Source: a virus (lineage: Duplodnaviria; Heunggongvirae; Uroviricota; Caudoviricetes). Taken from it: 17,616 bases of DNA. The notes under the pieces are model-generated. The model ran no database searches, had not been told where the DNA came from, and saw only the letters and a program-made list of their open reading frames with translations. Positions 7,058-17,616 of the stretch are shown here, in pieces. The stretch covers positions 1-17,616 of the IMG/VR virus record IMGVR_UViG_2713896768_000001. One strand, given 5' to 3'. Numbering within the stretch: position 1 is the stretch's first letter; the number at the start of each line of letters is the position of its first letter. The translations under genes and the position numbers were made by a program.

Positions 7058-9314
7058 CGCAGATACGATTAAAGACTTCCTTGTTTCGCTGGGATTCGAT
7101 ATCGATCAGGCTGGCGCTAATAAGTTTGAAGCCGTGCTGAAAGGCGTTACCGCAAACGTTCTGAAGGTCGGCGCGGTGGTGGAAGGCGCAGCGCTGAGCA
7201 TTGTCGGATTTACCACCCAGATCGCGAATGGTCTGGATAAAATTTACTGGGCATCCCAACGGACGGGGGCCAGCGTCCAGGGCATCAAAGCGCTGGGCTA
7301 TGCCGCGTCGCAAACCGGTGCCAGCGCCGAGTCGGCCATGTCCTCCCTCGAAGGGCTGGCCGGTTTCATGCGTAGCAATCCGGGGGCGGAAGGCTTCCTG
7401 AACCGTCTTGGTGTCCAGACCCGAGATGCCAGCGGAAAGATGCGTGATACTGCGGCCATCTTTACTGGCGTTGGGCAAAAGCTCAACAACATGCCGTATT
7501 ACCGCGCGAAGCAATACGCGCAGATGCTTGGCATCGATGAAAACACGCTGATGGCGATGCGGCGCGGCATGAATGGCTTTACCGCCGATTACCAGTCTAT
7601 GCTGCAAAAGACTGGGTTCAACGCTGATAAGGCGGCTGTGCAGTCCAATAAATTCATGACGTCCATGCGCGGGCTTACGTCGCTGTTCGGCATTATGCGG
7701 GACAAGATCGGCTCAAACCTCGCTGGTGGTCTTGCTGGTTCGCTGGACAGCCTGCGGCGGCGCATCCTCGACAACTTCCCGAAGATTGAAGAGACGCTGA
7801 CCAGAGTTATTAAAGGCGTGATCTGGCTTGCGAACGCCTTCACGCGAATGGCGTGGCGGCTCATACAGGGCGCTGGCTCTGTCATTGACTGGTGGAAGCG
7901 TCTTGACGATGGCAGTAAAAATCTGCTGAAAATATTCGGTGCTCTACTTGTCGCATGGCGTCTGCTTAATTCTGCGTTCCTGAAATCCCCGATTGGAATT
8001 ATCACCACGCTGATTCTGGCGATCGGATTACTCTATGACGATTATCAGACGTGGAAAGAAGGCGGTAAAAGCCTGATTGACTGGTCCAAGTGGGAGCCTG
8101 CAATAGAAAAGGCGAAAAAGGCAATTCTCTGGCTGCGCGATAAGCTTCTGGGGCTGAAAGATTCTGTTGGTGGATGGCAGAACTCGCTGGAAATTTTGGC
8201 TACTTTCATCGCTGGGGTATGGGTAACAAAAGTATTGGGAGCATTCGCAAAAATATCCGGTCTTCCGATACCTCCATGGCTTAAATTATGGGGAGCGTAT
8301 GCTGGTTACCTGGTTTCAGATCGTGAAAACATAAAAGCCAGTGCTAAATCATCTTTGGACTATACCAAAAGGAACATTGGTGATGCTCTTGCTACGGTTG
8401 GCATCAAAACCGACCTTGGGCGAAAAGATGTTAGCGAGGTAAGAGAATGGCCCGCATGGATGGATTGGCTGCATGGTGGCCCAGGTAAGATTATTCGTCA
8501 GGCGCAAAGCAATGGCGTCGTTTATGGCGATAATGTTCAGCCTGACATTCCCGGGGCGGAACAGCATGTTCGTAGTAATGAAATTGCCCCGCATGAAAGA
8601 GATGAAATAAAAAACCGTCAGCAGGCTGCTAATGGTTATCTTGAAAAAATCTCAGACGGGATTGCCAAAATCGGTAATTTATTTTTCTCCCCGGCTGGAG
8701 CTGCTGAAATCTCTCCAAATATATCGGGTGACCCCTCCCAGTTTGCGCAATCAGTCAAACGTCCACAGGCCACAGCCCAGGGCAAAGTATTGCTCGACTG
8801 GATGGGGCCAATGTTCAATAAACTTGAGTCGCTTTATCAACTTCCAGCTGGTCTATTGAAAAGTGTGGCGATAACCGAGTCAGGTGGTAACCAGTTCGCC
8901 ATGTCCGGCGCGGGTGCAAAGGGGCTGTTCCAGTTCATGGATGGCACGGCGCGAGACATGGGCCTGCGTGGTAACGATGTGTTCGACCCGGAAAAGTCAG
9001 CTCAGGCAGCCGCTAAGTACCTTAGCCAGCTATTGCGGCAGAACGGCGGAGACCTTAGCAAAGCACTTGCATCATATAACTGGGGAATCGGGAACGTTCA
9101 ACGTTATGGAATGGGGCTAATGCCGCAGGAAACGCGCAATTACATTCCGAAAGTAATGAGCAATATGCCCACCAGCGCCCCGGTGATTCAGCAGGAAACG
9201 AACATTAACATCCACGGCGTTTCCGATCCTCGCGAAGCTGCCCGTTTGACTGTTGACCGTCAAAAGGGTGTGAATTCACAGTTAACCCAGCAACTCCCCG
9301 CAGGACCGAGATAA
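7047..9314 (+). CDS. Tail tape measure protein with C-terminal soluble lytic transglycosylase (SLT) domain
   Basis: 755-aa ORF following the chaperone. Alpha-helical Ala/Gly-rich N-terminal region, a hydrophobic central segment (…LLKIFGALLVAWRLLNSAFLKSPIGIITTLILAIGLLY…), and a C-terminal SLT signature (…AITESGGNQFAMSGAGAKGLFQFMDGTARDMGL…ASYNWGIGNV…) with the catalytic-type Glu in the E-S-G-G motif near 8877. Confidence 0.75.
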   Translation: MSGNADTIKDFLVSLGFDIDQAGANKFEAVLKGVTANVLKVGAVVEGAALSIVGFTTQIANGLDKIYWASQRTGASVQGIKALGYAASQTGASAESAMSSLEGLAGFMRSNPGAEGFLNRLGVQTRDASGKMRDTAAIFTGVGQKLNNMPYYRAKQYAQMLGIDENTLMAMRRGMNGFTADYQSMLQKTGFNADKAAVQSNKFMTSMRGLTSLFGIMRDKIGSNLAGGLAGSLDSLRRRILDNFPKIEETLTRVIKGVIWLANAFTRMAWRLIQGAGSVIDWWKRLDDGSKNLLKIFGALLVAWRLLNSAFLKSPIGIITTLILAIGLLYDDYQTWKEGGKSLIDWSKWEPAIEKAKKAILWLRDKLLGLKDSVGGWQNSLEILATFIAGVWVTKVLGAFAKISGLPIPPWLKLWGAYAGYLVSDRENIKASAKSSLDYTKRNIGDALATVGIKTDLGRKDVSEVREWPAWMDWLHGGPGKIIRQAQSNGVVYGDNVQPDIPGAEQHVRSNEIAPHERDEIKNRQQAANGYLEKISDGIAKIGNLFFSPAGAAEISPNISGDPSQFAQSVKRPQATAQGKVLLDWMGPMFNKLESLYQLPAGLLKSVAITESGGNQFAMSGAGAKGLFQFMDGTARDMGLRGNDVFDPEKSAQAAAKYLSQLLRQNGGDLSKALASYNWGIGNVQRYGMGLMPQETRNYIPKVMSNMPTSAPVIQQETNINIHGVSDPREAARLTVDRQKGVNSQLTQQLPAGPR

Positions 9315-10225: not shown

Positions 10226-11290
10226 ATGTCTCTTAACTGGATGCGCCATTTTGAGTTGCAGCTGTTGGACCAGAACGGGCAGGGTATTTCCCTGTCTGAT
10301 TTTAAGGTCACGTTCCAGATCGAGTGGGCAGATACACGCTGGCCGCGCGTGGCAAACGTGAAAATTTACAACCTTTCGACCGATACCACGAACAAGATAC
10401 TGGGGCAGGAGTTTGCAAAAATTCGCATCATTGCCGGGTATGACGGTATTGCGCCGGATGTTGATGCGAGCCAGGTTGGTGTCGCCCGGGAGATTTCACC
10501 AGACCAGGTAGGGCAGGTGAACGGTCAGAACTACGGCCTGATATTTGACGGTGATATTCGCTTCACCGTCACCGGGAAGGACAACATCACCGATTCCTGG
10601 GTGCTGATTCAGGCCATCAGTAACCACGAAGCGTTCCTCTACGCGACTACCATCACCACGCTTGCCGCTGGCTATACCGTTGCGGATCTGCACCGGGCGA
10701 CGATGCAGGATTTCAACGCGTTCGGCGTGACACAGGGCATTACCGGCGATTTTCCTGATACCGTGTTTCCTCGTGGCCGCGCGATTTACTCATCCAGCCG
10801 CAACGTGATGGATAATATTGCTGCGCAGTGCAAAGCGACATGGCAACTGGTGGATGGTCAGGTCCAGATGGTGCCGGAGGATAAATATATTCACGAAGCC
10901 ATTGTGTTGAATGCCAATACTGGCCTGATCGGTATGCCGCAACAAACGATGGGCGGCGGAGTAAACGTGCGGTGCCTGATAAACCCAAACATCCGTATTA
11001 ATGGTCTTATCCAGCTCGATCAGGCTTCGGTGTACCGCGCCGCGCTCGGCAATAGCGAAATCGCACAGTCGCCCGGGCGTATCACTGAAACGGAAGAGAA
11101 CGGCAACCGCGCACTGACCGGCACAACGTCACAGGCTGCCAGCATTGCGACAGATGGCGTTTATATCGTCAAAGCTATCGACTATACTGGCGACACCAGA
11201 GGTCAGGCGTGGTACATGGATTTGATGTGTTTTGCGCGTGGTGCTCGTGAAATGGTTAGTCAGGACACGCTTAAAAAATGGCAGGTATAA
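10226..11290 (+). CDS. Baseplate hub protein (P2 gpD / Mu gp44-like)
   Basis: 354-aa ORF with an AGGAG RBS. Size and position after tape measure and before the spike gene match the hub of P2/Mu-type baseplates. Confidence 0.55.
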   Translation: MSLNWMRHFELQLLDQNGQGISLSDFKVTFQIEWADTRWPRVANVKIYNLSTDTTNKILGQEFAKIRIIAGYDGIAPDVDASQVGVAREISPDQVGQVNGQNYGLIFDGDIRFTVTGKDNITDSWVLIQAISNHEAFLYATTITTLAAGYTVADLHRATMQDFNAFGVTQGITGDFPDTVFPRGRAIYSSSRNVMDNIAAQCKATWQLVDGQVQMVPEDKYIHEAIVLNANTGLIGMPQQTMGGGVNVRCLINPNIRINGLIQLDQASVYRAALGNSEIAQSPGRITETEENGNRALTGTTSQAASIATDGVYIVKAIDYTGDTRGQAWYMDLMCFARGAREMVSQDTLKKWQV

Positions 11291-11291
11291 G

Positions 11292-11642
11292 ATGGGTAAG
11301 GCCAAACTTCTAATTTGTGGTGTTCTTTTATCAGTTGTCGGCACGTCAGAGGCCTTAGCTGATACTCAGTGCGGGCCGTATCGCCTCACTGCGGGCAAAG
11401 AAGGACTAATGCTTATTAACGGGGTAAAACCTGAAACGCAAAAAATGTCTTTTCTCAAGTCTAAAGATGACTACCAAAACATGAAAGCAGAATGGATGGT
11501 TGCAACCGACCAACCCGGCCGCTGGGTTGGGCTTGAGTACATCAAGCGCAACGGCAAAGCCATTCTCAACGCACAGTGGTTGCAAGCCAGCATGGATTCG
11601 CCGCGTCAGTATGCAACATACGACTGCGTGAAGGTGAAATGA
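11292..11642 (+). CDS. Small exported protein with Sec signal peptide (accessory moron gene; function unknown)
   Basis: ATG at 11292, 2 nt after the hub stop, with an AGGT RBS. N-terminus MGKAKLLICGVLLSVVGTSEALA|DTQCG… has a basic n-region, hydrophobic core and A-L-A signal peptidase I site, with no lipobox. The mature protein is about 94 aa with two Cys. By eye it is AT-richer than flanking tail genes and it interrupts the conserved hub-spike adjacency. Confidence 0.55.
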   Translation: MGKAKLLICGVLLSVVGTSEALADTQCGPYRLTAGKEGLMLINGVKPETQKMSFLKSKDDYQNMKAEWMVATDQPGRWVGLEYIKRNGKAILNAQWLQASMDSPRQYATYDCVKVK

Positions 11643-11659
11643 TGATCCGCATCCTTAAA

Positions 11660-11724
11660 CATCAATAATCGTTGATCTCGCGTTTTTATTATGCACTAAT
11701 CTGTACATGTACAGAGAGGGTGCC
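11660..11724 (+). promoter_or_regulatory. Putative promoter/operator of the toxin-antitoxin operon, including a perfect 14-bp palindrome CTGTACATGTACAG (11701-11714) and a GAGAGGG Shine-Dalgarno
   Basis: 82-nt AT-rich intergenic region. The palindrome was checked by reverse complement and abuts the RBS. A weak sigma70-like pair is possible (TTGATC at 11672-11677, ACTAAT at 11695-11700, 17-nt spacer). Palindromic operators bound by Phd/YefM antitoxins are established for this family. Confidence 0.45.
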
Positions 11725-12138
11725 ATGAAAATCATTACTTACACGCAAATGCGATCGGATTTATCTGCAACGCTGGACTGTTTACGCTCTGGTGAAAGCG
11801 TCACAGTTACGCAGCGCGGAAAGCCCGACCTTGTCATCAGTGCAAAATCAGTTGATGAAATCGCTTCCGCAGATGAGGTAAAAACATCTGCGAAAACAAT
11901 AGACACGCATCTTGCGCAATTAATTGCATCGAATTTGTCACCACAGATAACGGAGGGTGTCATGAAGCTTACTAAGCAATTGGATGCCCTTCTTCAGTCT
12001 GATGAGGCTCGCCAGACTATGATGAAGGCCACTAATGCAGCAGTTGCTTTGCAGGGCGTGTCTGAGTCATTTATCAAAGCTCTGCAACATACTCAGACCA
12101 AGCATGCGGACATCATAAAAAAACTGGAAGATAAGTAA
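11725..12138 (+). CDS. Phd/YefM-family antitoxin with an extended helical C-terminal domain (137 aa; typical Phd/YefM is about 75-90 aa)
   Basis: N-terminus MKIITYTQMRSDLSATLDCLRSGESVTVTQRGKPDLVISAKS matches the YefM/Phd N-terminal fold (compare remembered YefM [41 protein letters not shown]). The ATG at 11725 with a GAGGG SD is preferred over the track start at 11707, which lies inside the palindrome. The stop overlaps the toxin start (TAATG). Confidence 0.7.
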   Translation: MKIITYTQMRSDLSATLDCLRSGESVTVTQRGKPDLVISAKSVDEIASADEVKTSAKTIDTHLAQLIASNLSPQITEGVMKLTKQLDALLQSDEARQTMMKATNAAVALQGVSESFIKALQHTQTKHADIIKKLEDK

Positions 12139-12545
12139 TGACTGAGATTACATTCCTTTCGGTAGATGAGGTCATCGCTATTCAGAAGAGCACATTGCCA
12201 AATAGCGGACAACCAGACCGGGGAAAACTCGAAGGTGCCCTCAATCGCGTCGATAACTTACGCATGTATGAAGGATGTGAGGATTTATTTAAATTTGCAG
12301 CTATGTACATGGTTGCGATAGCGAAGTCTCACGCTTTTAATGACGCCAATAAGCGAACGGCTTTCCAGGCCGCCAGCGTGTTTTTGCTTTTGAATGGCTA
12401 TGAACTGAATACCTCAATGGAGTTAGTCAAGCTGACCATCTTTGCTGCTACGGGAGAGGCCGACTGCGATAACACTGCTTTGGCGCTTAAACTTTTGTCA
12501 GATTATAAGAATGAGCTGCTGGCAGATACGATAACTGGCTACTGA
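12138..12545 (+). CDS. doc: Doc (death-on-curing) / Fic-family toxin
   Basis: 135-aa ORF translationally coupled to the antitoxin. It contains the Doc signature H-x-F-x-D-A-N-K-R (SHAFNDANKRTAFQAASVFLLLNGY, codons at about 12330-12356), compared with remembered P1 Doc …GHIFNDANKRTALNSALLFLRRNG…. Confidence 0.8.
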   Translation: MTEITFLSVDEVIAIQKSTLPNSGQPDRGKLEGALNRVDNLRMYEGCEDLFKFAAMYMVAIAKSHAFNDANKRTAFQAASVFLLLNGYELNTSMELVKLTIFAATGEADCDNTALALKLLSDYKNELLADTITGY

Positions 12546-12567
12546 TAGCAAAAAGTAAATTGTACAC

Positions 12568-12592
12568 AACCCGCCGCCGAGCGGGTTTTTTT
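12568..12592 (+). terminator. Rho-independent terminator (stem ACCCGC / GCGGGT, loop CGCCGA, followed by a T7 run)
   Basis: Read directly: aacccgc-cgccga-gcgggtttttttat, 23 nt after the toxin stop and just before the RBS of the spike gene at 12604. Confidence 0.65.
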
Positions 12593-12603
12593 ATGGAGTT
12601 TTT

Positions 12604-13344
12604 ATGCCAATTCCAACTCAATCACAGATCGGCGGCGAGCAGCAGACCGCGCAGGCCATAGCCGATTCGGTGTCTACCCAGATGCGCGTAGCGATGCCAG
12701 GCATCATTCAGTCGTTCGATCCTGACGCTGTAACCTGCACAGTAGAAGTGGCGCTTCGCGGTATTGTTGGCGACGGCTCCACCGAATTAAAACCGCTGGT
12801 GGATGTTCCTGTCATCTTCCCGCGCGGCGGCGGCTGCACGCTGACCTTTCCGGTTAAAGAAGGCGACGAGTGCCTGCTGCTCTTTGCCGACCGTTGCATC
12901 GATTTCTGGTGGCAGAGCGGCGGCGTGCAGGAGACCGTCGACCCGCGCCAGCATGACTTATCTGATGCGTTCGCCATCGTTGGCCCACAGTCGCAAGCAC
13001 GGAAAATCAGCGGTATCAGTACCAGCGCCGCGCAGCTGCGAACCGATGATGGTGCGGCGTTTGTAGAAGTCGCCGCAGGACATAACATCACCATTAAAAC
13101 ACCGGGCCAGCTTACAGCTACGGCTGAAGGTGGAACGACAATCACATCCCCGACTATCACGCTGAACGGCAACGTAACGATTAATGGCAACTTGTCTCAG
13201 GGAATGGGCGAAAGCGGCGGTACTGCGACGATGCTTGGGCCGGTGACGGTAACGAATGACGTAACAGCTTCTGGTATCAGTGTCGCCACGCATAAACATG
13301 GCGGAGTACAGACTGGCGGGGGAACTACCGGAGGGCCGCAATAA
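12604..13344 (+). CDS. Baseplate central spike protein (P2 gpV / Mu gp45-like) with C-terminal beta-helix and His-x-His tip
   Basis: 246-aa ORF with a GGAG RBS. The C-terminal region is Gly/Thr-rich and repetitive (…TITSPTITLNGNVTINGNLSQG…) and ends …VATHKHGGVQTGGGTTGGPQ (HKH at 13291-13299), matching the iron-binding apex motif known for spike proteins. Confidence 0.6.
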   Translation: MPIPTQSQIGGEQQTAQAIADSVSTQMRVAMPGIIQSFDPDAVTCTVEVALRGIVGDGSTELKPLVDVPVIFPRGGGCTLTFPVKEGDECLLLFADRCIDFWWQSGGVQETVDPRQHDLSDAFAIVGPQSQARKISGISTSAAQLRTDDGAAFVEVAAGHNITIKTPGQLTATAEGGTTITSPTITLNGNVTINGNLSQGMGESGGTATMLGPVTVTNDVTASGISVATHKHGGVQTGGGTTGGPQ

Positions 13345-15574: not shown

Positions 15575-16515
15575 TGGCAATAAACAACTTTAAACCTTTC
15601 GCGCTTGATCCGAACGCTAACGTCACCTCACAAGCTGACTGGGAAGCACTTCCGGCTCTGCTTTCAGGGTTTACGGCAGGTAAAGCATCCAGCGCACAGG
15701 TCAACAAAGCCATTCGACAGGCCAGCTTTATTGCGGCAGCGCTTGCGCAGTACACAGCCAACAAAAGTGGGCTGGACGTGCTTGATGATGGTGACCTGAA
15801 CGGCTTTATCTCCAAAATGGGAACCGCTTTCGGGAAGGATTTCCAGGCACTTGATGCCACGCTGACGGCATTGGCAGGGCTCGCAACAGGTGAAAATAAA
15901 CTCCCGTATTTCACTGGAAATGATACAGCAGCGCAGACTGATTTAACTTCTGTCGGCCGCGACATTATTGGTAAAAGCACTATTGCTGACATTCTCACAT
16001 ACCTTGGTTTGGGAGAAGGCTCTGCATTACCTGTCGGTGTGCCTGTTCCGTGGCCTTCCGCCACTCCGCCGACAGGCTGGCTAAAATGCAATGGTGCGGC
16101 TTTTTCTGCTGAAGAATACCCGGAACTGGCAAAGGCTTACCCGACAAATAAATTGCCTGATTTACGCGGTGAATTTATTCGTGGCTGGGATGATGGGCGT
16201 AGTGCGGATGCGGGGAGAACAATATTATCCGCTCAGGGCGATGCCATACGTAATATCTATGGTGAGTTCAAGACTGTAAACACCGAAAATTATTCAATAT
16301 GGGAAGTAGCAAGCTCGTTTAAGGGAGCAGTGGTGCCTTTGAGTCCCTCTACAAACAATAGTTATTTCTCCTTAACCAGAAGTATGGTGACAGAAAGGTC
16401 CGAGGGCGGTGTTTACCCAAAAGTGATTGGCCTTGATGCTTCAAGAATTGTTCCAACTGCAAACGAAAATCGACCCCGTAACATTGCCTTTAATTATATC
16501 GTGAGGGCTGCCTGA
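15574..16515 (+). CDS. Tail fibre protein with C-terminal phage tail-collar domain; the C-terminal about 170 aa lie inside the invertible segment
   Basis: The ATG at 15574 overlaps the upstream stop (TAATG); the track start at 15556 is 6 codons upstream in the same frame. The collar-type motif …PVGVPVPWPSATPPTGWLKCNGAAFSAEEYPELAKAYPTNKLPDLRGEFIRGWDDGR… and the ending …RPRNIAFNYIVRAA are typical. A hix/gix-like site sits at codons around Tyr-Leu-Gly-Leu-Gly-Glu. Confidence 0.7.
   Translation: MAINNFKPFALDPNANVTSQADWEALPALLSGFTAGKASSAQVNKAIRQASFIAAALAQYTANKSGLDVLDDGDLNGFISKMGTAFGKDFQALDATLTALAGLATGENKLPYFTGNDTAAQTDLTSVGRDIIGKSTIADILTYLGLGEGSALPVGVPVPWPSATPPTGWLKCNGAAFSAEEYPELAKAYPTNKLPDLRGEFIRGWDDGRSADAGRTILSAQGDAIRNIYGEFKTVNTENYSIWEVASSFKGAVVPLSPSTNNSYFSLTRSMVTERSEGGVYPKVIGLDASRIVPTANENRPRNIAFNYIVRAA
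15992..16017. other. Left crossover site for a Gin/Hin/Pin-family DNA invertase: TTCTCACATACC-TT-GGTTTGGGAGAA
   Basis: Two 12-bp half-sites in inverted orientation (10/12 matching) around a 2-bp core, with 17/26 identity to the remembered gix site TTCCTGTAAACCGAGGTTTTGGATAA. An inverted copy appears at the window end, and a visible composition change begins near here. Confidence 0.6.
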
Positions 16516-17120
16516 TGGATAAAGCTATATTAAATAAGGAACTCATCGCCACAAAGGCGGGAGATATTACCGTTTATAATTATGATGGTGAAACACGAGA
16601 ATATATTTCCACATCAACCGAATATCTTGCTGTGGGTGTCGGTATCCCGGCATGTTCCTGTTTAGATGCTCCTGGCTCATATAAAGCTGGTTATGCAATT
16701 TGCCGTTCTGCAGATTTTAACTCATGGGAATATGTGCCAGACCATCGCGGTGAAATCGTCTATAGCACCGAAACAGGAGAATCAAAAGAAATCACAGCTC
16801 CGGGTGATTACCCTGAAAAGACAACCACTATCGCCCCGTTAACGCCATACGATAAATGGGATGGTGAGAAATGGGTGACGGATACCGAGGCACAGCATAG
16901 AGCAGCAGTAGACATGGCAGAAACACAGCGGCAGTCGCTGATTGATGCTGCAATGGTTTCCATTAGTCTGATTCAACTGAAATTGCAGGCCGGGCGGAAG
17001 CTGACGCAGGCAGAAAACACCCGACTTAACGCCGTGCTGGATTACACTGACGCGGTGATGGCAACAGATACCAGCACCGCGTCAGATGTCATCTGGCCAG
17101 TTCCTCCTGAGACGGTTTAA
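16515..17120 (+). CDS. tfa: Tail fibre assembly protein (Tfa)
   Basis: 201-aa ORF whose start overlaps the fibre stop (TGATG). The C-terminus …LNAVLDYTDAVMATDTSTASDVIWPVPPETV matches the conserved Tfa C-terminal pattern seen in lambda/P2/Mu-type assembly chaperones. Confidence 0.7.
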   Translation: MDKAILNKELIATKAGDITVYNYDGETREYISTSTEYLAVGVGIPACSCLDAPGSYKAGYAICRSADFNSWEYVPDHRGEIVYSTETGESKEITAPGDYPEKTTTIAPLTPYDKWDGEKWVTDTEAQHRAAVDMAETQRQSLIDAAMVSISLIQLKLQAGRKLTQAENTRLNAVLDYTDAVMATDTSTASDVIWPVPPETV

Positions 17121-17376
17121 TCTCAATCAGAATGGGTTCTCCCTTCTCGTTAACAGATATTTCCATTCCTTCAGGGATTTCAGATGCAGTAAAAAACCAG
17201 TTATCTTCTGGTAATTCAACAGCCCCGGTCACGTCATGAAGACCGGGGATTACTTCAGTCAAAGTAACAGGATTAAACAGGCGCACAATAAACCCTCCAG
17301 GAAAAAGCACTTGTTGATGGTGTTCCGTCGTACATCTGGCAGCGGACATAAAAACCGGTATTAGTGACCTGGTCAT
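17089..17376 (-). CDS. Minus-strand ORF downstream of the alternative fibre domain: possible short tfa' or frame-disrupted remnant
   Basis: 95-aa track ORF, but its first 34 codons overlap the Sv' reading frame and no convincing RBS/start follows the Sv' stop. Its 3' end overlaps the + strand tfa by 32 nt. It ends …EIKPSQEELAR. Coding status is uncertain. Confidence 0.25.
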   Translation of the reverse strand: MTRSLIPVFMSAARCTTEHHQQVLFPGGFIVRLFNPVTLTEVIPGLHDVTGAVELPEDNWFFTASEIPEGMEISVNEKGEPILIEIKPSQEELAR

Positions 17377-17616
17377 CCACGATCATTGAAACGTGAACGT
17401 TATTAGATGTGCCCCCATAATCCGTTCCTATTCTTTCCGCTATGCTGATAAAACGTGAAAGCTTAGGTAGCGCAATTGGATAAACGACTTTAGCCAGTCC
17501 ATTATCATTAGAACCCCCCGTTCCAAAGACTTCTATTGCACCATCTGACCAGCGTATCCACGCACCATTGGCATTAGCTCCTCGCTGAATGACATATCTG
17601 GCTTCTCCCAAACCAA
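17273..17616 (-). CDS. Alternative tail fibre C-terminal variable domain (Sv'-like), 5'-partial: open to the window edge, silent in this orientation
   Basis: The - strand frame is open from the window end to the stop at 17273-17275. The track start is a TTG, and the reading frame continues through the crossover site in the same frame as the fibre constant region. Confidence 0.5.
   Translation of the reverse strand, partial: GLGEARYVIQRGANANGAWIRWSDGAIEVFGTGGSNDNGLAKVVYPIALPKLSRFISIAERIGTDYGGTSNNVHVSMIVDDQVTNTGFYVRCQMYDGTPSTSAFSWRVYCAPV
17603..17616. other. Right crossover site for the invertase, truncated by the window end (TTCTCCCAAACC-AA…)
   Basis: The last 14 nt of the window are the exact reverse complement of 16004-16017 (TTGGTTTGGGAGAA), i.e. 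the first half-site plus core of an inverted copy of the left site. The rest would lie beyond the window. Confidence 0.55.

What the first reader, a model, noticed from the sequence alone, without database searches (positions are those of the whole stretch)
11292..12603. Accessory island inserted into the baseplate operon between hub and spike genes
In Mu- and P2-type baseplate clusters the hub gene is normally followed directly by the spike gene. Here about 1.3 kb intervenes, carrying a signal-peptide protein, a Phd/YefM-like antitoxin, a Doc toxin, a palindromic operator and its own intrinsic terminator. By eye it is AT-richer than the flanking tail genes. This is the layout of a moron or defence/addiction cassette sitting in a structural-operon hotspot. 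Doc is established as a kinase that inactivates EF-Tu; a role in prophage stabilisation or abortive-infection-like exclusion is inference. The pairing of an exported protein with a Doc module at this locus is not something I recognise as described.
Basis: partly seen in the sequence, partly recalled or inferred. Interest (0 to 1): 0.75.

Follow-up and report, generated by a model that had tools for sequence, protein, structure and literature searches.

The report
Phd/Doc toxin-antitoxin cassette in prophage hotspot
Between the baseplate hub and spike genes of this enterobacterial prophage lies a recombination hotspot for accessory genes, here holding an ordinary, already annotated Phd/Doc toxin-antitoxin pair; the neighbouring exported protein and the terminator are fixtures of the slot, not part of an inserted island.

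Summary
Between hub (10226-11290) and spike (12604-13344) lie three + strand genes, a perfect 16-nt palindrome and a terminator, at 44-46% GC against 53-59% in the flanks.

The "one inserted island" reading is only partly right.
- **Gap is universal.** In 101 related loci, hub and spike are never adjacent; the gap is 404-2470 bp and always AT-richer.
- **orfA is resident.** The signal-peptide protein (phrog_3443, STY1065/STY2022 family) follows the hub in 96 of 101 loci. In four it is the only gene in the gap.
- **The terminator belongs to the slot.** A hairpin plus T-run precedes the spike in all 102 sequences.
- **Only Phd/Doc is swappable cargo.** It occurs in 5 of 101 loci, with identical proteins beside different orfA and spike alleles. 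Other loci carry DUF4236, PD-Lambda-1-like, antirepressor, ClpP-like and other genes.

Doc keeps the HxFxDANKR motif and matches DOC_P1. The antitoxin is a long Phd variant. Its TGTACA-core operator is conserved even in a 45%-identical Serratia module.

Likely mechanism: an autorepressed EF-Tu-kinase toxin-antitoxin module. Whether it serves abortive-infection defence or retention is inferred. Both proteins are already named in RefSeq. Interest is low to moderate.

The parts
10226..11290 (+). Baseplate hub gene (354 aa), the left conserved flank of the slot. Its last 10-15 codons (from about 11241) already fall in the variable zone.
   Evidence: phrog_196 'baseplate hub', E = 1.2e-84. There is also a weak E217_GP41 match. 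DNA similarity to relatives stops at 11241-11264.
11292..11642 (+). orfA: a resident exported protein of the slot (116 aa). The predicted signal peptide covers residues 1-23 (11292-11360). The mature part is an 8-stranded beta protein with invariant Cys27 and Cys112. Function unknown.
11672..11700 (+). Putative sigma-70 promoter of the toxin-antitoxin operon: -35 TTGATC (11672-11677), a 17-nt spacer containing TG, and -10 ACTAAT (11695-11700).
   Evidence: Read from the sequence. An equivalent TTGnnn-N17-hexamer is present in L110 and L122. The consensus scan did not call it, so this part is inferred.
11700..11715 (.). Operator: the perfect 16-nt palindrome TCTGTACATGTACAGA, with two adjacent TGTACA cores. 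It abuts the -10 hexamer and lies 10 nt upstream of the antitoxin ATG.
   Evidence: It is the only perfect palindrome of 14 nt or more in the window. It is conserved at the same distance from the ATG in the 83%-identical (L110) and 45%-identical (Serratia L122) modules, while the surrounding sequence differs. TGTACA cores are the YefM operator motif (PMC1802561).
11725..12138 (+). orfB: a long Phd-type antitoxin (137 aa). It has an N-terminal Phd/YefM DNA-binding domain (residues 1-38), a variable or disordered linker, extra helices, and an invariant C-terminal helix (116-137) that probably binds Doc.
   Evidence: P1 Phd, E = 5.8e-5 with the family profile. Alignment A2. AF2 model. RefSeq WP_001515093.1 is named 'Phd/YefM family antitoxin'.
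12138..12545 (+). orfC: Doc toxin (135 aa), a Fic-fold kinase with the motif H65-x-F-x-D-A-N-K-R73. Its start codon overlaps the antitoxin stop codon (TAATG).
   Evidence: TIGR01550, 81.3 bits. PF02661. phrog_577 'Doc-like toxin'. P1 Doc 3K33, E = 7.3e-20 with the motif aligned. RefSeq WP_001515094.1.
11540..12580 (+). The Phd/Doc cassette as it is actually exchanged. About 100% DNA identity in other backbones starts inside the conserved 3' end of orfA (11537-11630) and runs to the terminator and the spike start.
   Evidence: Sliding-window identity against L002, L048, L076, L112, L115, L116, L120 and L121. Right-hand breakpoints fall at 12568 or 12581.
12568..12592 (+). Intrinsic terminator (AACCCGC-CGCCGA-GCGGGTT plus T7), the right boundary of the slot. 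It is a feature of the slot, not of the Doc cassette.
   Evidence: The same hairpin occurs in L004 and L005, which carry different cargo. A hairpin plus T6-8 is present in all 102 sequences, in at least 4 stem versions with compensatory changes.
12604..13344 (+). Baseplate central spike gene (246 aa), the right conserved flank.
   Evidence: Pfam spike N-terminal domain, E = 2.6e-41, plus the GpV Apex motif. TIGR01644 phage_P2_V.

Best explanation
The window is the structural operon of a SEN34/Brunovirus-like temperate myovirus of Enterobacteriaceae. In this lineage the hub-spike junction is a recombination hotspot with a fixed frame.

**The frame.** It runs: hub 3' end, then a resident exported beta-barrel gene (orfA), then a variable cargo bay, then a conserved intrinsic terminator with the spike ribosome-binding site. 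Cargo is exchanged by homologous recombination between the conserved 3' half of orfA and the terminator/spike 5' end.

**The cargo here.** The bay holds a bicistronic type II toxin-antitoxin operon of the Phd/Doc family, with a long (137-aa) Phd variant.

**How it most likely works.**
1. The antitoxin dimer, helped by bound Doc, binds the TGTACA-core palindrome that overlaps the operon's own promoter and represses it.
2. The antitoxin's C-terminal helix occludes the Doc active site.
3. When antitoxin synthesis stops or the antitoxin is degraded, free Doc phosphorylates EF-Tu and arrests translation.

**Likely payoff for a prophage.** The likeliest payoff is abortive-infection-type exclusion of other phages, retention of the cassette or prophage, or both.

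**Shown here:** gene identities, the slot architecture, cassette mobility and operator conservation.
**Inferred:** promoter activity, DNA binding, toxicity, the EF-Tu target and the biological role.
For: **Identity**
- Doc matches DOC_P1 at 81 bits, and P1 Doc at 7e-20 with an intact HxFxDANKR motif.
- The antitoxin N-domain matches P1 Phd at E = 5.8e-5 with the family profile.
- The stop and start codons overlap (TAATG).
- The invariant C-terminal residues F116, A119, L120, T123, H127 and I130 have the spacing 0, +3, +4, +7, +11, +14. That is the spacing of the Phd hot spots F56, I59, M60, H63, L67 and L70.
- AF2 gives a confident N-domain, a disordered linker and a C-terminal helix.

**Operator**
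- It is the only long palindrome in the window.
- It is conserved in position and sequence across modules down to 45% antitoxin identity.
- TGTACA is the YefM operator core.

**Hotspot**
- In 101 loci the gap is 404-2470 bp and never zero, and gap GC is always below flank GC.
- Clustering gave 45 groups of gap ORFs, some of them spurious. Among them are DUF4236, PD-Lambda-1-like (275 bits), PDC-S42, Arc plus P22-type antirepressor, ClpP-like, and an independent short Phd plus Doc in Yersinia aldovae.

**Cassette mobility**
- Phd/Doc proteins are identical beside orfA alleles of 66-98% identity and spike alleles of 69-100%.
- In the O55:H7 sister prophage, Doc is 94% identical while the hub is only 53%.

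**Doc mechanism**
- The EF-Tu kinase activity comes from the literature: Castro-Roa 2013, as cited in PMC13645617, and PMC9207808.
Against: - Nothing here is functional evidence.
- The antitoxin N-domain scores just under the Pfam and TIGRFAM cut-offs as a single sequence.
- The promoter was not called by the consensus scan.
- The two TGTACA cores are 6 bp apart centre to centre, not 12 bp as in yefM-yoeB, so the binding geometry may differ.
- No PADLOC model of a validated defence system matches. Only weak hits to 'PDC' candidate families were found.
- Only 2 of 20 representative gap proteins scanned (19 cargo families plus the L014 short Phd) hit PADLOC models at E <= 0.001, so 'defence hotspot' is not established.
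Confidence: 0.82

Rival explanations
1. One reading: a three-gene accessory island (exported protein, Phd and Doc) with its own terminator was inserted as a unit between hub and spike and works as one system.
For: All three genes are AT-richer than the flanks and lie between the hub and the spike. The same order, orfA-like gene then Phd then Doc, recurs in a sister prophage lineage.
Against: orfA homologs are present in 96 of 101 loci regardless of cargo, and are the only gene in the four smallest gaps. Identical Phd/Doc sits beside orfA alleles of 66-98% identity, with recombination junctions inside orfA. The terminator is universal to the slot. A 45%-identical Phd/Doc relative in Serratia has no orfA neighbour.
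Confidence: 0.04
2. The module is purely selfish. Phd/Doc persists in the cargo bay because losing it kills or arrests the cell (post-segregational or 'death on curing' logic). It gives neither the phage nor the host any defence benefit.
For: P1 Phd/Doc is the archetypal addiction module, and it is the closest solved homolog. The cassette is rare: 5 of 5426 complete E. coli genomes, counting the 82% variant. No validated defence family matches.
Against: The same bay holds PD-Lambda-1-like and PDC-S42-like genes in other relatives. Hotspots in other prophages, such as P2 and P4, are enriched in defence systems (PMC9122126, listed). The exact antitoxin is indexed in 944 blocks of the public assembly collection and shows signs of spread across backbones. 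None of this is decisive.
Confidence: 0.3
3. The intervening genes are conserved baseplate or virion components rather than accessory genes.
For: orfA is nearly universal at this position. It sits one nucleotide after the hub stop codon, so it is probably co-transcribed with the late genes.
Against: Phd/Doc is absent from about 95% of relatives, and Providencia phage PSTCR3 has no gene at all between hub and spike. orfA has a cleavable-type signal peptide, two invariant cysteines and lower GC than the flanks, which fits a periplasmic protein rather than a cytoplasmically assembled virion part.
Confidence: 0.05
4. The toxin-antitoxin pair is a decaying, non-functional remnant.
For: One relative (L115) has a truncated 125-aa Doc.
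Against: The catalytic motif, the coupled gene arrangement, the operator and the antitoxin C-terminus are all intact. The proteins are 100% identical across many backbones.
Confidence: 0.05

Closest known systems
Bacteriophage P1 Phd/Doc addiction module (PDB 3K33, 3DD7, 3HRY)
   Same: - Doc has a Fic fold and an identical catalytic motif (H-x-F-N-D-A-N-K-R-T-A).
- The antitoxin gene lies upstream and is translationally coupled.
- The antitoxin has an N-terminal Phd/YefM domain.
- The hydrophobic periodicity of the C-terminal neutralising helix is the same.
- There is a palindromic operator at the promoter.

   Different: - The antitoxin is 137 aa rather than 73 aa, with a 70-residue insert of linker plus conserved helices.
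- The module sits in the tail operon of an integrated myovirus prophage, not on a plasmid prophage.
- The operator has two abutting TGTACA cores.
- The Doc match is significant but distant (E = 7e-20).
YefM-YoeB / Axe-Txe operators (TGTACA-core palindromes; PMC1802561)
   Same: The antitoxin N-domain family is the same, and the hexamer core sits in a palindrome overlapping the promoter.
   Different: The cores here are 6 bp apart centre to centre and form one 16-nt palindrome, rather than 12 bp apart as long and short repeats. The toxin is Doc, not YoeB.
Phage morons (HK97/HK022 definition, Juhala 2000) and prophage hotspots of accessory or defence genes (P2/P4; Rousset 2022, PMC9122126)
   Same: - Conserved flanking genes with variable cargo.
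- Composition deviates from the flanks.
- A terminator lies at the downstream end and a promoter-like site upstream.
- Toxin-antitoxin and defence-like genes are among the cargo.

   Different: - The location is different (hub-spike junction) and so is the phage lineage (SEN34/Brunovirus-like).
- The bay is framed by a resident exported-protein gene.
- The terminator is part of the frame.
- Enrichment for defence genes is not shown.
Salmonella Typhimurium Phd/Doc (PMC9207808)
   Same: A Doc kinase that acts on EF-Tu and is neutralised by the Phd C-terminal helix through the hot spots F56, I59, M60, H63, L67 and L70. The antitoxin here has the same spacing of invariant residues.
   Different: The Salmonella antitoxin is the short 73-aa type, and several of the residues at those positions differ (A119, T123 and H127 here).

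Membership tests
Type II toxin-antitoxin, Phd/Doc family | The toxin is a Fic-fold protein with the Doc motif HxFx(D/N)(A/G)NKR. | tested here: met
   H65-A-F-N-D-A-N-K-R73 aligns with the P1 Doc motif. TIGR01550 scores 81.3 bits against a cut-off of 38.65. PF02661 scores 45.4 bits against 24.
Type II toxin-antitoxin, Phd/Doc family | The antitoxin has an N-terminal Phd/YefM fold. | tested here: met
   As a single sequence it falls just below the cut-offs: PF02604 28.5 against 29.8, and TIGR01552 20.2 against 20.8. The family profile matches P1 Phd residues 1-52 at E = 5.8e-5. AF2 gives a beta-alpha-alpha-beta-beta N-domain at pLDDT 86-88. Homologs carry precomputed PF02604.
Type II toxin-antitoxin, Phd/Doc family | A bicistronic operon with the antitoxin first and the genes coupled. 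| tested here: met
   The orfB stop codon and the orfC start codon overlap (TAATG at 12136-12140).
Type II toxin-antitoxin, Phd/Doc family | A C-terminal antitoxin segment binds and neutralises Doc. | tested here: inconclusive
   The invariant C-terminal helix has the hydrophobic spacing of the Phd hot spots. There is no significant sequence match to P1 Phd residues 52-73, and no model of the complex could be made.
Type II toxin-antitoxin, Phd/Doc family | Autoregulation through a palindromic operator at the promoter. | tested here: inconclusive
   The palindrome is unique in the window and conserved across divergent modules. Binding and repression cannot be tested with these tools.
Type II toxin-antitoxin, Phd/Doc family | The toxin arrests growth by phosphorylating EF-Tu, and the antitoxin rescues. 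| not testable with these tools
   This needs expression and phosphoproteomic experiments.
Phage moron | Present in some close relatives and absent from others, between conserved genes. | tested here: met
   Phd/Doc is in 5 of 101 loci, and the flanks are 95-99% identical in relatives that carry other cargo.
Phage moron | Its own promoter and terminator, and a composition that deviates from the flanks. | tested here: inconclusive
   GC is 0.457 against 0.556. The promoter is plausible but was not called by the scan. The terminator is present but is shared by every occupant of the slot.
Prophage anti-phage defence hotspot (P2/P4 type) | Conserved flanks with highly diverse, mutually exclusive cargo. 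| tested here: met
   Gap ORFs from 101 loci fell into 45 clusters, including some spurious short ORFs.
Prophage anti-phage defence hotspot (P2/P4 type) | The cargo is enriched in known defence systems. | tested here: inconclusive
   Of 20 representatives scanned (19 cargo families plus the L014 short Phd), only the PD-Lambda-1-like (275 bits) and PDC-S42-like (124 bits) proteins hit PADLOC. Doc itself gives only weak hits to PDC candidates.
   Phd/Doc is present in about 5% of relatives. orfA is present in 96 of 101 but has lower GC and a signal peptide. PSTCR3 has nothing between hub and spike.

The most novel reading that the evidence does not exclude
The hub-spike junction of SEN34/Brunovirus-like prophages may be an undescribed anti-phage or superinfection-exclusion hotspot. 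On this reading, two of its parts would do more than they appear to.

- The resident exported beta-barrel protein (STY1065/STY2022 family, phrog_3443) would itself be a periplasmic exclusion factor. It could, for example, act against the tail-borne SLT lytic transglycosylase or the receptor step of incoming phages, as T4 Spackle or T5 Llp do.
- The conserved extra helical insert of the long Phd antitoxin would act as a phage-trigger sensor that releases Doc for abortive infection.
Probability: 0.15. Interest if true: 0.55.

Novelty: new member of a known kind. Interest (0 to 1): 0.3.

Why it matters
As found, this is a routine prophage-borne Phd/Doc toxin-antitoxin module that RefSeq already names.

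The useful by-products are comparative:
- A cleanly delimited accessory-gene hotspot in a common family of enterobacterial prophages.
- A fixed frame for that hotspot: a resident secreted protein of unknown function, plus a conserved terminator in the middle of the baseplate operon.
- A diverse, mostly uncharacterised set of cargo genes, two of which resemble known or candidate defence proteins.

The cargo set could be mined for new defence or exclusion genes. The long-Phd variant offers a natural comparison for how antitoxin architecture tunes Doc control.

Tried and rejected
**orfA function**
- Pfam, NCBIfam and PADLOC gave no hit. PHROGs gave only an unknown-function family.
- Foldseek against BFVD found nothing at E <= 0.001.
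- The AFDB50 library was unavailable.

**Where the Phd/Doc DNA occurs**
- There is no match in 72,556 plasmids or 50,697 phage records, even in distant mode. A plasmid or P1-like origin is not supported.

**RNA elements**
- An Rfam scan of 11000-12900 gave only a sub-threshold Trp_leader hit over the terminator. No RNA element is proposed.

**Promoter**
- The consensus scan found one site inside the hub gene and none for the toxin-antitoxin operon, no more than chance.

**Extra TGTACA sites**
- The sites at 12304 and 12561 make 4 in the cassette against 0.28 expected. Neither has a counterpart in the 82% variant (L110), though the Serratia module has one inside doc at a similar offset. They were not pursued as operators.

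**Literature**
- Searches for STY1065/STY2022, SEN34/Brunovirus, and moron/baseplate/hotspot found no description of this slot.

**Tool errors**
- The first family searches failed on a one-base coordinate error.
Full report
**1. What is in the window**

All sizeable genes are on the + strand and make up the structural operon of a contractile-tailed temperate phage.
- Head and neck: major capsid, cement protein and neck terminator.
- Tail: a DUF3383-type sheath, a KPP10_Orf10-type tube, an assembly chaperone and an SLT-bearing tape measure.
- Baseplate: Dit-like protein, Pam3-gp18-like plug, hub (10226-11290), spike (12604-13344), sheath initiator, Baseplate_J and wedge protein.
- Tail fibre and its assembly protein.

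The closest named phages are Citrobacter phage Omnitron, with 95% hub identity. More distant are Salmonella phage SEN34 (Brunovirus), Klebsiella phage Mulock, Hafnia phage yong1 and Yersinia phage YP3.

**2. Checking the observation**

- orfA (11292-11642, 116 aa) starts one base after the hub stop codon and has a signal-peptide-like N-terminus.
- orfB (11725-12138, 137 aa) has a Phd/YefM-like N-terminus.
- orfC (12138-12545, 135 aa) overlaps the orfB stop codon. It is a Doc toxin: TIGR01550 81.3 bits, P1 Doc as best PDB hit at 7e-20, and the catalytic motif H65-AFNDANK-R73 intact.
- TCTGTACATGTACAGA (11700-11715) is the only perfect palindrome of 14 nt or more in the 17.6-kb window.
- A terminator-like hairpin with seven T lies at 12568-12592.
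- GC is 0.44-0.46 across the region, against 0.53-0.59 in the flanks.

**3. Comparison with relatives changes the picture**

I collected 8 annotated loci (7 E. coli prophages and Citrobacter phage Omnitron), 21 loci from other species' genomes and 80 viral contigs. In 101 of them the hub and spike lie on one stretch.

- **The gap is universal.** Hub and spike are never adjacent. The gap ranges from 404 to 2470 bp (median 961). Its GC (0.36-0.47) is always below that of the flanks (0.49-0.57).
- **orfA is resident.** An orfA homolog at 40-98% identity directly follows the hub in 96 of 101 loci. In the four smallest gaps (404-429 bp) it is the only gene. orfA is therefore a near-core gene of the lineage. 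It belongs to phrog_3443, which NCBI names the 'STY1065/STY2022 family phage-derived protein'.
- **The bay downstream is hypervariable.** Clustering the ORFs of the gaps gave 45 groups, some of them spurious short ORFs. They include:
  - DUF4236 on the opposite strand (19 loci);
  - small secreted or membrane proteins;
  - an EACC1-like protein;
  - a PD-Lambda-1-like T5orf172 protein (PADLOC 275 bits);
  - a PDC-S42-like protein;
  - an Arc-like repressor with P22-type antirepressors;
  - a ClpP-like protease;
  - in Yersinia aldovae, an independent short Phd plus a 41%-identical Doc.
- **Phd/Doc is rare cargo.** It occupies the bay in 5 of 101 loci and in 2 of the 59 related E. coli prophages.

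**4. The Phd/Doc cassette moves independently of orfA and the spike**

- Its two proteins are 100% identical next to orfA alleles of 66-98% identity and spike alleles of 69-100% identity.
- The exact antitoxin is indexed in 944 blocks of the public assembly collection. In all ten places inspected it sits in this slot, beside orfA products of 111-122 aa, hubs of 353-364 aa and spikes of 212-246 aa.
- Sliding-window identity shows that about 100% identity begins inside the conserved 3' end of orfA (11537-11630) and runs into the spike. The hub 3' end and the first two-thirds of orfA drop to 50-65% identity.
- Relatives with other cargo regain similarity at 12568 or 12581, inside the terminator.
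- Exchange therefore looks like homologous recombination between two conserved patches.
- A sister prophage lineage in E. coli O55:H7 has a hub only 53% identical. It carries an 82%-identical copy of the cassette (Doc 94%, antitoxin 83%) in the same slot, which points to transfer between lineages.
- A 45%-identical relative in Serratia lies in a different prophage, downstream of a Q-type antiterminator gene, with no orfA neighbour.
- No plasmid or sequenced phage record carries similar DNA.

**5. The terminator belongs to the slot**

All 102 sequences, including loci with no cargo, have a GC-rich hairpin followed by T6-8 immediately before the spike ribosome-binding site. At least four stem versions preserve pairing through changes on both sides: ACCCGC/GCGGGT, ACCAGC/GCTGGT, AGCCGC/GCGGCT and GGTCGCA/TGCGGCC. 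The window's own hairpin is shared with loci that carry unrelated cargo (L004, L005).

Providencia phage PSTCR3 has a hub 36% identical and a spike 62% identical. There the two genes overlap by 4 nt, with no intervening gene and no terminator. Direct adjacency therefore exists outside the lineage.

**6. Anatomy of the toxin-antitoxin module**

The antitoxin family (alignment A2) has four parts:
- a conserved N-terminal domain (residues 1-38);
- a variable linker;
- a conserved helical middle part;
- an invariant C-terminus (F116-x-x-A-L-x-x-T-x-x-x-H-A-x-I-I-x-x-L-E-D-K).

The family profile matches P1 Phd residues 1-52 at E = 5.8e-5. AF2 gives a confident N-domain (pLDDT 86-88), a disordered stretch at 46-58 and a C-terminal helix at 114-136 (pLDDT 81-85).

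The invariant C-terminal residues fall at spacings of 0, +3, +4, +7, +11 and +14. That is the spacing of the Doc-binding hot spots F56, I59, M60, H63, L67 and L70 mapped in Salmonella Phd (PMC9207808). I take this as support, not proof, that the C-terminus is the neutralising segment.

The palindrome is conserved exactly, and at the same distance from the start codon, in both diverged modules. Its TGTACA cores lie at -23/-17 in the window and L110, and at -25/-19 in the Serratia module, while the surrounding sequence differs. TGTACA cores are the experimentally defined YefM operator motif (PMC1802561), although there the centre-to-centre spacing is 12 bp and here it is 6 bp.

A plausible promoter abuts the palindrome: TTGATC, a 17-nt spacer containing TG, then ACTAAT (11672-11700). 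Equivalents exist in the other two modules. The consensus scan did not call it.

**7. orfA**

- Alignment of 32 homologs shows a variable signal peptide, invariant Cys27 and Cys112, and a nearly invariant C-terminal half.
- AF2 predicts an eight-stranded beta protein at pLDDT 82.7.
- BFVD gives nothing significant.
- I conclude it is an exported, probably disulfide-bonded periplasmic protein of unknown function. It is not functionally tied to Doc.

**8. Mechanism and role**

The best-supported reading is an autorepressed type II toxin-antitoxin operon. Its toxin, by homology to P1 and Salmonella Doc, phosphorylates EF-Tu and stops translation once the antitoxin is depleted (literature).

For an integrated prophage the benefit could be exclusion of other phages by abortive infection, or retention of the cassette or prophage. 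The company it keeps in the bay (PD-Lambda-1-like and PDC-S42-like genes) hints at defence. But only 2 of 20 representatives scanned (19 cargo families plus the L014 short Phd) hit PADLOC, and Doc itself gives only weak hits to candidate families. I leave the role open and lean slightly toward defence.

**9. Novelty**

Both proteins are already in RefSeq as Phd/YefM antitoxin and death-on-curing toxin. Toxin-antitoxin modules as prophage morons, and prophage hotspots, are established concepts (PMC9122126 and PMC10884400).

I found no description of this particular hub-spike slot, of its resident exported protein, or of the conserved mid-operon terminator.

Verdict: a new member of a known kind, of low to moderate interest.

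Noticed in passing
window 12568-12592, and the equivalent position in L001-L109: A conserved intrinsic terminator (hairpin plus T6-8) sits directly before the spike gene in all 102 related sequences, in the middle of the baseplate operon. At least four stem versions keep pairing through compensatory changes. It implies read-through or antitermination during late transcription, or insulation of late genes from transcription in the lysogen. It is absent from Providencia phage PSTCR3, where hub and spike overlap.
   Followed up: partly
window 11292-11642 (orfA) and homologs P0001-P0077: This is a near-core exported protein family (phrog_3443, STY1065/STY2022). It has a variable signal peptide and N-terminal half, invariant Cys27 and Cys112, and a nearly invariant C-terminal half. 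The predicted fold is an 8-stranded beta barrel with no informative structural neighbour. The gene is AT-richer than the tail genes around it.
   Followed up: partly
window 11241-11540: A hypervariable segment covers the last 10-15 codons of the hub and the first two-thirds of orfA. It shows 50-65% DNA identity between phages whose flanks are 95-99% identical. It varies independently of the cargo bay downstream.
   Followed up: partly
L014 (Yersinia aldovae) 3107-3699: An independent canonical short Phd (74 aa; PF02604 45.7 bits) plus a Doc only 41% identical to the window's occupies the same hub-spike bay. Doc-family modules have therefore been recruited to this slot more than once.
   Followed up: partly
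L020 (Pantoea dispersa), L016 (Pantoea ananatis), L068 and L071 (viral contigs): Other cargo in the same bay includes a PD-Lambda-1-like T5orf172 protein (PADLOC 275 bits), a PDC-S42-like protein (124 bits), and an Arc-like repressor with P22-type antirepressors. Most other cargo families have no annotation.
   Followed up: partly
window 12304 and 12561: Two further TGTACA hexamers lie inside and just downstream of doc. That makes 4 in the 961-bp cassette against 0.28 expected (Poisson P = 2e-4). The 82%-identical variant (L110) has no counterpart; the Serratia module has one inside doc at a similar offset (+552 against +579). Probably not operators.
   Followed up: yes
window 17273-17611 (- strand): A minus-strand ORF after the tail-fibre assembly gene has a weak Gp53-like tail-fibre C-terminal domain. 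Together with the pinE invertase downstream of the equivalent region in L110, it suggests an invertible alternative tail-fibre segment at the window's end.
   Followed up: no
window 8000-8600 and 16200-16800: There are two more GC dips (0.46 and 0.43), one inside the tape-measure gene and one over the tail-fibre and assembly genes. Low GC alone does not mark the hub-spike island as unique in this window.
   Followed up: no
L115, 3914-4291: One otherwise identical cassette encodes a C-terminally shortened Doc (125 aa rather than 135), a possible decay variant.
   Followed up: no
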